A DNA stretch of 64,000 nt from a virus (lineage: Duplodnaviria > Caudoviricetes): positions 9,323 through 73,322 of the IMG/VR virus record IMGVR_UViG_2939702853_000005; one strand, written 5' to 3'. Shown piece by piece: positions 13,454-15,277 of this stretch. The position numbers and the translations under genes were made by a program. Under the pieces are notes generated by a model. The model saw only the letters and a program-made list of their open reading frames with translations, had not been told where the DNA came from and ran no database searches. Numbering within the stretch: position 1 is the first letter of the stretch; the number at the start of each line of letters is the position of its first letter.

Positions 13454-13645
13454 CTAAAAAGTTTTTTTAGCATCAATTGGTTTTATTTTAACAAATCCAT
13501 TTGCGTCACACTCTAGATTTAGATTGTTACGTAAATCAATGGATTCATTCTTTTTAAGTCTGTTAATCATTGGTGTATCAGAGAAGGGATTAGCTAACTT
13601 TTTTCTTGTCAATGAGTTATTAGCTTGTTTGACAGTACTTTTCAT
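13454..13645 (-). CDS. Small hypothetical protein
   Basis: 63 aa, GGAGG RBS, downstream of kinase. Confidence 0.4.
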   Translation of the reverse strand: MKSTVKQANNSLTRKKLANPFSDTPMINRLKKNESIDLRNNLNLECDANGFVKIKPIDAKKTF

Positions 13646-13698
13646 AAGAAACCCTCCTTCCCTTACGATTATATCACACTTTATGGGAACATGCGATC

Positions 13699-14730
13699 TT
13701 ATAATTCCTTGATGAATTTAGCTAATTGTTTATAAGCAGCTTCCTTTTGATCATGAATCTTGAAACATTTTGTGATTCTTGATGCTCTTACCGTCTTTTT
13801 CGAATGGCTGTATCCTTCGATTTTCCATTTTCCTGAATCTTCGCATAGACTCAGTGTCTTAATGGTCTTATCACCTTCAAGTGACCACTGCTCTTTACCA
13901 TCATTAATTGAATATAACCAATCAAGATTATCTGAAACAGCACTAATGCTATTCATTAGCTCCAATACGCTTTGGTATCTTTTATCAGGATCAACTTCCA
14001 AAGCTTTTTTAATACTTTTCCTCAAGCTGTTCGGTATATGAGGAAGAAATTTGTCTCGTGAAGGAAATGTTCCGTTCATAACATTTTTCTGAGTAAGAGA
14101 TGTACATTGTGAATTAAAATCGTCGTTTCCATTGCACATCCGATATAGAGTCAACCCAGCTTGGTAAATATCATACTGATTTGTCAGACTGGTGGTCACC
14201 AATGCATCTGGTACATAATGTTTCATATAGATTTTATCAGGAGATGCAAACCCATTAGCATCGGTGTATTTAGTAAGACCAAAGTCAGTAAGAATCGCTT
14301 TATTAGAATCGTTAATTATAATATTGGTTGGTTTGATATCAAAATGGACAAGTTTCTTCGTATGTACAAAGTGTAGCCCACTTAAAAAATCAAGCGAGTA
14401 TTTAACAATTTCTCTTACGCTCAAAAACCTCTTATTCATCAGAGTATTCAGTGAGCCTCTTGAATGAAACGGCATGGATAGATATATCTTATCTGTATCT
14501 TCACAAGCGTAATTAATCACCATGATATTGGGGTGACGACCACTGTACAACATTTTAGACTCGTTAAAGTAATCTTCTTTCATTTGAAAATCAGATTTTG
14601 GAATTGATTTCACAACTATTTCAGCATCGAGTTGAGGGTCATGGGCAAGAAATGCTTTAGAATTAGCACCTTCACCACCAATTTCTCTAATGAAATTAAA
14701 AGTTAATTGTGTTATAACTTGATGTGTCAT
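13699..14730 (-). CDS. Hanks-type Ser/Thr protein kinase (non-RD)
   Basis: G-loop IGGEGANS, VVK lysine, alphaC Glu (NESK), HFDIKPTN catalytic loop, DFG, DIYQAG subdomain IX. Confidence 0.9.
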   Translation of the reverse strand: MTHQVITQLTFNFIREIGGEGANSKAFLAHDPQLDAEIVVKSIPKSDFQMKEDYFNESKMLYSGRHPNIMVINYACEDTDKIYLSMPFHSRGSLNTLMNKRFLSVREIVKYSLDFLSGLHFVHTKKLVHFDIKPTNIIINDSNKAILTDFGLTKYTDANGFASPDKIYMKHYVPDALVTTSLTNQYDIYQAGLTLYRMCNGNDDFNSQCTSLTQKNVMNGTFPSRDKFLPHIPNSLRKSIKKALEVDPDKRYQSVLELMNSISAVSDNLDWLYSINDGKEQWSLEGDKTIKTLSLCEDSGKWKIEGYSHSKKTVRASRITKCFKIHDQKEAAYKQLAKFIKEL

Positions 14731-15209
14731 AGAATCACCTCTTCTTCTAATTCACTAGCTGCAACGGCGGTGATAATACTTTCCCTTACGCCCTTGGCTG
14801 ATTTACTAACTCCTTCAACATTCAATAATTCGTTATCACCATCAATAAAGTCCTTTATTTTTGAAGCAGTTTCTTCAACCAAACTTGCAATCTTAGAAAT
14901 TGTACCGAGAAAATACTTGTGTATGCTACAGTCGGCAAGCAATTCTTGAATTACCCCTTCTAAGTAGATTCTCTCAATGCTCACATTCTGAGCAGTCCCT
15001 TCGTGAACCCTGATACCTGCATATACAACGGAATACTCAATAAAAATAGAATTGAGATTCGTTCTTACATAGGCCAGTTGATCAGGGACTTCTAAAGCTT
15101 TTGGGATAATAATTTTATCGTGGGTTAGAATTGATATCTCGTCTTCAATTTTTTCAGTTAAACAATAAAAAACTTCTGATGGTGAAACTCGTATTCCTAT
15201 TGATCTCAA
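14727..15209 (-). CDS. RNase H/RuvC-like fold protein (DUF3010-like), coupled to kinase
   Basis: N-terminal strand pattern MRSIGIRVSPSEVFYCL, later AGIRVHEG and IYLEGVIQ; 4-nt ATGA overlap with kinase. Confidence 0.5.
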   Translation of the reverse strand: MRSIGIRVSPSEVFYCLTEKIEDEISILTHDKIIIPKALEVPDQLAYVRTNLNSIFIEYSVVYAGIRVHEGTAQNVSIERIYLEGVIQELLADCSIHKYFLGTISKIASLVEETASKIKDFIDGDNELLNVEGVSKSAKGVRESIITAVAASELEEEVIL

Positions 15210-15263
15210 AATTTATCACTCCCCTATAGTTCTACTATACGACATATGGGAACATATTCCTAC

Positions 15264-15277
15264 AGAACAAATGTTTG
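15264..15277. promoter_or_regulatory. Possible LexA (Cheo) box upstream of the RNase H-fold/kinase operon
   Basis: AGAACAAATGTTTG matches GAAC-N4-GTTY. Confidence 0.35.

What the first reader, a model, noticed from the sequence alone, without database searches (positions are those of the whole stretch)
13454..15277. RNase H-fold protein plus Hanks kinase two-gene operon: candidate new defence or toxin-antitoxin system
A 160-aa RuvC/RNase H-like protein, with Arg where the first catalytic Asp usually sits (IGIRVSP versus LGIDPG), is translationally coupled (ATGA overlap) to a soluble, TM-less non-RD Ser/Thr kinase with an ~80-aa C-terminal extension. There is no cognate phosphatase. The pair sits in a prophage moron with a possible LexA box upstream. 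Soluble kinases such as staphylococcal Stk2 mediate abortive infection. A nucleic-acid-binding but inactive RuvC-fold partner could act as a sensor of branched phage DNA or as an inhibitor/substrate. I do not recognise this pairing as a named system.
Basis: partly seen in the sequence, partly recalled or inferred. Interest (0 to 1): 0.75.

Follow-up and report, generated by a model that had tools for sequence, protein, structure and literature searches.

The report
Phage 933W-type Stk kinase defence cassette
This Paenibacillus prophage carries a three-gene set (a RuvC-shaped protein lacking its first cutting residue, a protein kinase and a tiny basic protein) related to the stk locus of Shiga-toxin phage 933W, whose kinase is known to make lysogens abort infection by a rival phage; so the kind of system is known, though I found no study of its two partner genes.

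Summary
The genes lie on the minus strand and there is a third gene. A (14727-15209, 160 aa) has a RuvC fold with Arg at the first catalytic Asp position. B (13699-14730, 343 aa) is a soluble Hanks-type non-RD kinase with all catalytic residues and an ~85-aa C-terminal domain; it overlaps A by ATGA. C (13454-13645, 63 aa) is basic and is followed by a terminator.

The pairing is not new. A, B and C match, in the same order, the cI-operon genes L0083 - stk - small ORF of phage 933W. They also match Bacillus phages SPbetaL6/L7. 933W Stk is a published abortive-infection kinase acting against HK97.

Linkage held in every testable locus. All 31 loci found through A carry the kinase directly downstream. 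Of 80 viral contigs found through the kinase, 79 carry A directly upstream, and the other is cut at a contig end. Some chromosomal copies sit directly behind restriction-modification genes.

The LexA-box idea is not supported.

This scan has already found the same cassette on other DNA, mostly E. coli Stx prophages, and reached the same conclusion.

Verdict: a new member of a known kind. Interest is moderate, because I found no study of the dead-RuvC and small-protein partners.

The parts
15210..15310 (-). Leader of the cassette. Anti-SD stretch (CUCUCCUCC, about 15305..15296). Perfect 12-nt inverted repeat CTACTATACGAC (15294..15283) / GTCGTATAGTAG (15243..15232). -10-like TATAGT (15239..15234). 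SD AGGGGAG (15225..15219). Also an imperfect Cheo-like site at 15265-15276.
   Evidence: Sequence read. The RNA fold is -34.2 kcal/mol, z -4.4, and pairs the SD with the upstream anti-SD. Comparable hairpins occur in L003 (z -4.6) and L008 (z -3.7). The promoter scan found no consensus sigma-70 site here, so the promoter assignment is inferred. The Cheo-like site is not above chance and recurs upstream of A in only one other locus.
14727..15209 (-). Gene A: 160-aa RuvC-fold protein with Arg7 in place of the first catalytic Asp (probable pseudo-nuclease). Homologue of 933W L0083 / ST933Wp23.
13699..14730 (-). Gene B: 343-aa soluble Hanks-type non-RD protein kinase, homologue of 933W Stk. Kinase domain about 13972-14676. 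C-terminal beta-meander plus helix domain about 13702-13959.
13646..13698 (-). B-C spacer with an extended -10 element TGATATAAT (13676..13668), the 10-mer ATGTTCCCAT (13692..13683) and SD GGAGGG (13657..13652). Probable separate promoter for gene C.
   Evidence: Sequence. TG(A/T)TATAAT is conserved at the same place in L003, L004 and L005, whose proteins are only 46-72% identical to the window's. The same 10-mer lies upstream of the -10-like element of gene A.
13454..13645 (-). Gene C: 63-aa basic protein (pI 10) with motif L-T-R-K-K-L-A-N-P-F and C-terminal NGFVKIKPI. Counterpart of the 54-aa ORF after 933W stk.
13409..13440 (-). Intrinsic terminator (9-bp stem, T-run) ending the cassette.

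Best explanation
The stretch is a self-contained three-gene accessory cassette (A-B-C plus a terminator) of an SPbeta-like Paenibacillus prophage. It belongs to the same family as the stk operon of Shiga-toxin phage 933W.

Most likely mechanism:
1. In the lysogen the cassette is expressed from its own leader. Gene C also has its own extended -10 promoter. This step is inferred.
2. The kinase B is held inactive. Published for 933W Stk; inferred here.
3. A superinfecting phage supplies a trigger that activates B.
4. B phosphorylates host (and possibly phage) proteins broadly and aborts the infection. Published for 933W Stk against HK97.

A is a catalytically dead RuvC-fold protein. Its former active-site pocket is the most conserved part of the family, which suggests that A is the sensor or regulatory subunit. 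C is a small basic protein with a conserved L-(S/T)-R...A-x-P-(F/Y) motif and may be a second regulator, possibly an inhibitor or pseudosubstrate. Both roles are inferred and low-confidence.

The anti-SD hairpin in the leader would silence translation of the cassette on late read-through transcripts from the tail operon, so the prophage would not trigger the system against itself (inferred).
For: Homology and synteny with 933W:
- A against L0083: 33% identity, E 3e-19. B against Stk: 39.5% over 324 aa, E 5e-74, reaching into the C-terminal domain. The order is the same, the junction is tight (ATGA overlap in the window; 7-bp overlap in the 933W annotation), a small ORF follows and then a terminator.
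- PHROG families: phrog_3875 at E 9e-29 and phrog_2361 'serine-threonine kinase' at E 4e-68.

Published function of 933W Stk: expressed in lysogeny, little activity in uninfected cells, activated by HK97 infection, and causes abortive infection (PMC8008677; PMC3681748; PMC6356687).

Linkage:
- The kinase lies directly downstream of A in 31 of 31 loci from Bacillota, Bacteroidota, Gemmatimonadota and phages.
- A lies directly upstream in 79 of 80 IMG/VR contigs found through the kinase; the exception is cut at the contig end. Gaps range from -19 to +24 nt.
- A small basic ORF follows the kinase in 109 of 112 loci.

Active kinase: all catalytic residues are invariant.

Dead nuclease: RuvC fold at Z 18.8, with Arg7 in 147 of 151 members.

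Defence-like context and distribution:
- Prophage location here and in SPbetaL6/L7.
- Directly behind hsdM-hsdS in L020 and L028, and behind McrB-like plus LlaJI-like genes in L022.
- Neighbours include type I and II R-M genes, MADS components, AriA, recombinases and lysis genes.
- Patchy distribution: 1 of 200 other species genomes of the family.

Regulatory elements.
Against: No functional data exist for this cassette or for any member outside 933W. Protection, toxicity and trigger are all extrapolated across about 39% identity and across phyla.

I could not read the primary 933W papers. I therefore do not know whether L0083 and the small ORF were present on the constructs that gave exclusion. 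If stk alone suffices, A and C are modulators, not essential parts.

933W Stk was described as a tyrosine kinase, whereas the catalytic loop here (HFDIKPTN) is of the Ser/Thr type.

Unlike 933W, the cassette is not in the immunity region under the repressor promoter. It sits in an island inside the late tail region, and no consensus promoter was detected upstream of A.

Decayed copies exist: L009 has a truncated kinase and L013 a split one.
Confidence: 0.7

Rival explanations
1. It is a kinase-toxin / antitoxin addiction module that stabilises the prophage or island, as HipA-type kinase toxins do, with A and/or C as antitoxin and no dedicated anti-phage role.
For: - The module is tight, always linked and mobile.
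- The small gene C has its own conserved extended -10 promoter in the Paenibacillus clade, which would give excess of a putative inhibitor, as in TA systems.
- Distribution is patchy.
Against: - The only studied relative acts as a phage-triggered abortive-infection factor. TA and Abi functions are not mutually exclusive, so this is more a variant than a true rival.
- The cassette sits beside R-M systems in several genomes.
- Neither A nor C resembles a known antitoxin.
Confidence: 0.15
2. The genes serve the prophage's own life cycle. The kinase remodels host proteins (as the T7 kinase does) or controls lysogeny (as the Pf KKP module does), and the RuvC-like protein acts on phage DNA as a resolvase using a non-canonical active site.
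For: - The cassette lies inside the late/tail region of the prophage.
- Phage records annotate the A family as 'RuvC-like Holliday junction resolvase'.
- Four invariant or nearly invariant acidic residues remain in A: E70, E84, E89 and E143.
- Phage kinases with such roles exist (PMC13645617 and PMC11341870, listed).
Against: - The position of the first catalytic Asp is Arg in 147 of 151 members.
- A low-confidence alignment also places Arg/Lys67 at the second acid.
- The same cassette occurs outside phages, directly behind R-M genes.
- The leader hairpin would block translation from late read-through RNA.
- In 933W the cassette is expressed from pRM in lysogeny only (PMC3430580).
Confidence: 0.1

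Closest known systems
stk operon of Shiga-toxin phage 933W (cI - DUF3024 orf - L0083/ST933Wp23 - stk - 54-aa orf - tM). Stk = exclusion / abortive-infection kinase against HK97 (Tyler & Friedman 2004; Friedman et al. 2011, cited through PMC6356687, PMC3681748, PMC8008677)
   Same: All three genes are homologous or positionally equivalent and stand in the same order, with an overlapping A/B junction and a terminator after the small ORF. The kinase matches over its full length, including the C-terminal domain. A shares the invariant G5, R7, R49, R67, E70, R80, E84, E89 and E143. Both cassettes are carried by temperate phages.
   Different: - Identity is only about 33-39%.
- The host is a Gram-positive Paenibacillus.
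- The cassette sits in an accessory island in the tail-gene region with its own leader, not behind cI under pRM, and there is no DUF3024 gene.
- C is only weakly similar to the 933W small ORF (29% in a three-way alignment).
- Function here is untested.
Bacillus phages SPbetaL6 / SPbetaL7 genes 73-72-71 (OQ921346, OQ921347), annotated hypothetical
   Same: Closest phage-borne copies in GenBank phages: A 41%, B 45% identity. They have the same three genes with a 4-bp A/B overlap, in an SPbeta-like phage near the tail genes.
   Different: They are unannotated and, as far as I could find, unstudied. Their position relative to the long cut gene 68 (probably the tape measure; not scanned) differs from the window's arrangement.
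PD-T4-6 (Vassallo et al. 2022, PMC9519451) and staphylococcal Stk2 (Depardieu et al. 2016)
   Same: Both are soluble Hanks-type kinases that protect by abortive infection. PADLOC PD-T4-6 profiles match B at E about 1e-36.
   Different: - PD-T4-6 is a 436-aa single gene that was cloned with only about 180 bp upstream, so it has no RuvC-like partner.
- The PD-T4-6 match is no stronger than the generic Pkinase match.
- The Stk2 locus could not be examined here.
RuvC Holliday-junction resolvase (PF02075; PDB 7w8d, 6lw3, 4ld0, 1hjr)
   Same: Full-length fold match: Z 17-19, 145-153 residues aligned. Seven of 112 family members give weak Pfam RuvC hits, best E 6e-5.
   Different: There is no significant sequence similarity for the window protein. 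The first catalytic Asp is an invariant Arg. The protein is always encoded with a kinase rather than with ruvAB.
MADS kinase MAD6 (NF047741; PADLOC mad6)
   Same: This is the best PADLOC hit of B (E 1e-37, residues 11-328). MADS components are among the neighbours of some cassettes.
   Different: The NCBIfam score is 100.9 against a cut-off of 460. MAD6 is about 610-660 aa and part of a large methylation-associated system.

Membership tests
933W Stk-type cassette | Kinase homologous to 933W Stk over the kinase domain and the C-terminal domain | tested here: met
   tblastn gives 39.5% identity over 324 aa, E 5e-74. The alignment has conserved D270, W271, S294, Y307 and K321. phrog_2361 at E 4e-68.
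933W Stk-type cassette | RuvC-fold partner (L0083 family) directly upstream and overlapping the kinase start | tested here: met
   33% identity, E 3e-19. phrog_3875 at E 9e-29. ATGA overlap. The linkage holds in 31 of 31 and 79 of 80 loci.
933W Stk-type cassette | Small basic ORF directly downstream, then a terminator | tested here: met
   63-aa ORF with pI 10 and a terminator at 13440..13419. Similarity to the 933W ORF is weak, but it is clear to Firmicutes copies (E down to 1e-22).
933W Stk-type cassette | Expressed from the prophage in the lysogenic state | not testable with these tools
The only evidence is indirect: a leader hairpin and promoter-like elements.
933W Stk-type cassette | Kinase-dependent exclusion / abortive infection of a superinfecting phage | not testable with these tools
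   This needs plating and growth assays.
Hanks-type protein kinase (PF00069) | Pfam score over the cut-off, plus catalytic Lys, alphaC Glu, HxD, Asn and DFG | tested here: met
   124.5 bits against 31.7. K41, E57, H129/D131, K133, N136 and D149-F-G are invariant.
RuvC resolvase (PF02075) | RuvC fold | tested here: met
   VIA Z 18.8, rmsd 2.9, 150 residues aligned on the 156-residue chain 7w8d_A. Foldseek E 1.4e-8.
RuvC resolvase (PF02075) | Pfam model over the gathering score | tested here: not met
   No Pfam hit at E <= 1. Only 7 of 112 relatives give sub-threshold hits.
RuvC resolvase (PF02075) | Four acidic catalytic residues (E. coli D7, E66, D138, D141) | tested here: not met
   The first position is Arg7 in 147 of 151 members. 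Low-confidence alignments put R/K67 at E66 and E143 at D141. The register of the later positions is uncertain.
PD-T4-6 | Single-gene system; kinase of about 436 aa sufficient on its own | tested here: not met
   Here the kinase is 343 aa and has two obligately linked partners. The PD-T4-6 clone had no room for a partner. The HMM match is at generic kinase level.
MADS MAD6 | NCBIfam NF047741 over its cut-off | tested here: not met
   100.9 bits against 460.
Stk2 (Staphylococcus) | Orthology to S. epidermidis Stk2 | not tested

The most novel reading that the evidence does not exclude
The published 'single-gene' Stk abortive-infection kinase is really the enzymatic core of a three-protein immune module found across bacterial phyla. 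A catalytically dead RuvC-fold protein, with its former active site rebuilt from invariant Arg and Glu residues, senses a phage product such as a DNA junction, a recombination intermediate or a phage protein. A small basic peptide restrains the kinase until then.
Probability: 0.3. Interest if true: 0.7.

Novelty: new member of a known kind. Interest (0 to 1): 0.45.

Why it matters
Kinase-based abortive infection is one of the less understood forms of bacterial immunity. How Stk-type kinases are kept silent and how they sense infection is not known.

This cassette shows that the 933W kinase type exists in Gram-positive SPbeta-like prophages. It also shows, as elsewhere, that the kinase never travels without a dead RuvC-fold protein and a small basic protein. 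If these partners are the sensor and the brake, the family offers a tractable three-protein model for phosphorylation-based phage sensing, testable in B. subtilis with the related SPbetaL6/L7 phages. It would also correct the single-gene description used by defence-annotation tools.

For this window alone the result is mainly a correct annotation of a prophage defence gene set.

Tried and rejected
- **LexA/Cheo box.** There is a single imperfect site at 15265-15276. The pattern is not above chance and recurs upstream of A in only one (L025) of the 31 related loci, so I rejected it as a supported feature.
- **Sequence-level link of A to solved structures or to RuvC.** hmmsearch of family profiles against PDB sequences gave only chance-level hits. 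hhalign against four RuvC sequences was not significant: probability about 2% in local mode and 0.1% in global mode. Only the fold supports the RuvC relationship.
- **DUF3010.** The protein atlas suggested this name. No member of the family matched PF11215.
- **Kinase C-terminal domain.** Foldseek found no match at E <= 0.001 (best 0.08). The wide structural search gave a best Z of 8.3, which is at background level; PARP WGR domains appeared at Z about 6-6.5. The atlas gave no usable hit. I claim no fold assignment.
- **Fused A-kinase forms.** None appeared among the 150 best representative clusters of A, which are all 103-243 aa. The remaining 120 hits were not inspected.
- **Primary 933W papers.** Friedman 2011 and Tyler & Friedman 2004 are not held.
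- **Literature on the partner genes.** Searches for a described RuvC-like/kinase defence pair found nothing relevant.
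Full report
**1. What is there**

All the genes lie on the minus strand.
- Gene A, 14727..15209, encodes 160 aa. It starts at a TTG nine bases after the SD AGGGGAG, and its N-terminus MRSIGIR matches the ATG-initiated homologues.
- Gene B, 13699..14730, encodes 343 aa. Its ATG overlaps A's TGA, giving ATGA.
- Gene C, 13454..13645, encodes 63 aa.
- An intrinsic terminator at 13440..13419 closes the unit.

Upstream lies the 1151-aa tail protein with YOMG_N and Prophage_tail domains, and beyond it a 2330-aa ORF, apparently the tape measure. 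The cassette is therefore the first unit of an accessory island in the tail region of an SPbeta-like prophage. The host is a Paenibacillus: the closest homologue of A, at 93% identity, is from P. jamilae.

**2. Gene A is a RuvC-fold protein that is very probably not a nuclease**

Pfam, NCBIfam and PADLOC give nothing. PHROGs places A in phrog_3875, 'RuvC-like Holliday junction resolvase', at E 9e-29.

An AlphaFold2 model built on 20 homologues has pLDDT 90. It superposes over its whole length on cellular RuvC. VIA gives Z 18.8, rmsd 2.9 and 150 residues aligned on the 156-residue chain 7w8d, with Z 17-18 to 6lw3, 6s16 and 1hjr. This is well above MOC1, phage and poxvirus resolvases at Z 12-13. 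Foldseek gives E 1e-8.

At the sequence level the link is faint.
- 7 of 112 family members reach a sub-threshold Pfam RuvC hit, best E 6e-5.
- Profile searches against PDB sequences find nothing.
- Profile-profile alignment to four RuvC sequences is not significant.

The family comprises about 270 clusters at 50% identity, and all of the 150 best clusters are stand-alone proteins of 103-243 aa. Across 151 members:
- G5, R80, E84 and E89 are invariant.
- R49 is present in 150 members; R7 and E70 in 147 each; E143 in 143.
- Position 67 is R in 121 and K in 30.

R7 sits in the strand-1 motif 'IGIR', where RuvC has 'GID' with the first catalytic Asp. The low-confidence alignments also put R/K67 at the second acid and E143 at the last one. 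The canonical metal-binding tetrad is therefore not present. What is conserved instead is a mixed Arg/Glu site in the old active-site region. That looks like a retained binding site rather than a catalytic one; this is an inference.

**3. Gene B is an intact Hanks-type kinase of the 933W Stk type**

Pkinase scores 124.5 bits against a cut-off of 31.7. In 23 homologues K41, E57, H129, D131, K133, N136 and D149-F150-G151 are invariant. The catalytic loop HFDIKPTN is non-RD and of the Ser/Thr type.

Residues ~258-343 form a separate domain, modelled at pLDDT 86 as a beta-meander followed by a helix. I could not assign its fold. The best Foldseek E was 0.08, and the best Z in the wide search was 8.3, which the tool rates as background. 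PARP WGR domains at Z about 6-6.5 are only a lead.

PADLOC matches to PD-T4-6 and mad6 (E about 1e-36) are no better than the generic kinase match. The NCBIfam MAD6 score is far below its cut-off. PHROG phrog_2361 at E 4e-68 is the specific match.

**4. Gene C**

C is basic (pI 10). A small ORF of 41-95 aa follows the kinase in 109 of 112 loci, in 69 distinct sequences.
- Firmicutes copies share L-(S/T)-R-x-x-L-A-N-P-(F/Y/H) ... R-L-x-K ... (N/D)-G-(Y/F) ... K-P-I.
- Bacteroidota copies keep G-L-T-R-A-x-N-x-x-P-K.
- The 933W type keeps L-P-R-R-R-D-A-A-L-A-x-P-Y.

The common core is a short L-x-R ... A-x-P-aromatic motif. A role as a docking or pseudosubstrate peptide is my speculation.

**5. 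The pairing is not new: it is the 933W stk operon**

tblastn of A against GenBank phages found 41 records. Two are Bacillus phages, SPbetaL6 and SPbetaL7, at 41% identity. Thirty-nine are Stx phages of the 933W type at 33%.

In 933W the hit is ST933Wp23 (L0083). It lies in the pRM operon, which runs cI - DUF3024 orf - L0083 - stk - 54-aa orf - tM. Its end overlaps the stk start by 7 bp in the record's annotation. SPbetaL7 has the same three genes with a 4-bp A/B overlap. B is 39.5% identical to Stk over 324 residues (E 5e-74) and 45% identical to the SPbetaL7 kinase.

933W Stk is expressed in lysogeny and has little activity in uninfected cells. It is activated on HK97 infection and causes abortive infection. 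These points come from statements citing Friedman et al. 2011 and Tyler & Friedman 2004 in PMC8008677, PMC3681748, PMC6356687 and PMC3430580. I could not obtain the primary papers. I found no paper that discusses the two partner genes.

**6. Linkage in both directions**

Starting from A, 29 loci in species-representative genomes and the two phage records all carry the kinase immediately downstream. The genomes include Paenibacillus, Peribacillus, Cohnella, Oceanobacillus, Clostridium, Lachnospiraceae, Enterococcus, Planococcus, several Bacteroidota, and Gemmatimonadota-type MAGs. Two copies are decayed: L009 is truncated and L013 is split.

Starting from the kinase, 80 IMG/VR contigs were recovered. 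Of these, 79 have A directly upstream with gaps of -19 to +24 nt, and the remaining one begins inside the kinase gene. Many of the 80 are near-identical 933W-type prophages, so the number of independent observations is smaller; 69 distinct C sequences give a lower bound.

**7. Context supports defence**

Besides prophages, the cassette lies directly behind hsdM-hsdS in L020 and L028, and behind a McrB-like ATPase plus a LlaJI-like endonuclease in L022, all on the same strand.

Among 106 flanking ORFs the recurrent families are type I and II R-M genes, MADS components, AriA, AbiEii-like ATPases, serine and tyrosine recombinases, HTH regulators, holin, amidase and capsid. Each occurs only 2-3 times.

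The cassette is rare and patchy. It occurs in 1 of 200 other species genomes of the family and in 0 of 20 sampled from the same genus. No PP2C phosphatase lies on the window's contig.

**8. Regulation in this prophage (partly inferred)**

The 120-nt leader contains a perfect 12-nt inverted repeat and an anti-SD stretch. As RNA it folds at -34.2 kcal/mol (z -4.4) and pairs the SD of A. L003 (z -4.6) and L008 (z -3.7) have comparable hairpins; L002 pairs its SD too but is not above shuffles (z -1.4).

A -10-like TATAGT lies in the 3' arm. A transcript started there would lack the 5' arm and be translatable, while read-through RNA from the tail operon would be silenced. No consensus promoter was scored by the scan, so this needs mapping.

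The B-C spacer carries a perfect extended -10, TGATATAAT. It is conserved in three other Paenibacillus loci whose proteins are only 46-72% identical. This suggests extra, separate expression of C.

The 10-mer ATGTTCCCAT precedes both -10-like elements.

**9. Mechanism and rivals**

Best reading (confidence about 0.7): a Stk-type abortive-infection module, with B as effector and A and C as obligate regulatory or sensor partners.

A toxin-antitoxin-like addiction role is a variant rather than an alternative (0.15). A role in the prophage's own development, with A as a working resolvase, is disfavoured for three reasons: the Arg substitutions, the non-phage R-M-linked copies, and the leader design (0.1).

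**10. Novelty**

The window holds a new, Gram-positive prophage-borne member of a known kind. The point with some novelty is that the 'single-gene' Stk defence is a three-gene cassette with a dead RuvC-fold protein.

Earlier follow-ups of this scan reached the same point on other DNA, mostly 933W-type E. coli prophages and one integron cassette. My tests were made independently and agree with them.

New here are the SPbeta-type context, the reverse linkage test on viral contigs, the model of the C-terminal domain, the R-M-embedded copies, and the leader and promoter features.

Complex prediction and RNA-read evidence were not available.

Noticed in passing
window 15210-15310 (minus strand); also L003:4900-5010, L008:4900-5010, L002:4900-5010: The leader upstream of gene A folds into a strong hairpin (-34.2 kcal/mol, z -4.4) that pairs the SD with an upstream CUCCUCC stretch. 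A -10-like TATAGT lies inside the 3' arm. Relatives show the same layout. This could silence the cassette on late read-through transcripts.
   Followed up: partly
window 13668-13692 and 15234-15255 (minus strand): The exact 10-mer ATGTTCCCAT lies 6-9 nt upstream of -10-like elements, both before gene A and before gene C. Allowing one mismatch it occurs 14 times in the window against 5.4 expected. It could be a shared operator or promoter element.
   Followed up: partly
window 10527-12233 (minus strand); L003:2243-3832: A 568-aa protein in the same island has repeated DUF4379 treble-clef zinc fingers and a C-terminal DUF2726 domain. A DUF4379 protein also neighbours the cassette in Paenibacillus illinoisensis. 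It may be another accessory or defence gene.
   Followed up: no
window 12589-13323 (minus strand): A 244-aa protein with an N-terminal hydrophobic segment, a Cu_amine_oxidN1 domain and sub-threshold ankyrin-repeat matches (Ank_2 22.3 bits against a 27.3 cut-off) is encoded in the prophage island directly downstream of the cassette.
   Followed up: no
L020:1970-4990, L028:2192-4976, L022:1628-4971: In Nemorincola and Planococcus the cassette follows hsdM-hsdS on the same strand. In Flavobacterium qiangtangense it follows a McrB-like ATPase and a LlaJI-like endonuclease. The kinase cassette may act as an add-on to restriction systems.
   Followed up: partly
window 13702-13959 (kinase residues 258-343): The model of the kinase C-terminal domain gives weak matches (Z about 6-6.5, up to 21% identity) to the nucleic-acid-break-binding WGR domain of PARP1 and PARP3. 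These are at background level and are only a lead.
   Followed up: partly
L009:5590-6027 and L013:3400-4433: Two copies are decayed. The Lachnospiraceae MAG keeps only the C-terminal part of the kinase, and the Desulfitobacterium MAG has the kinase split into two frames.
   Followed up: no
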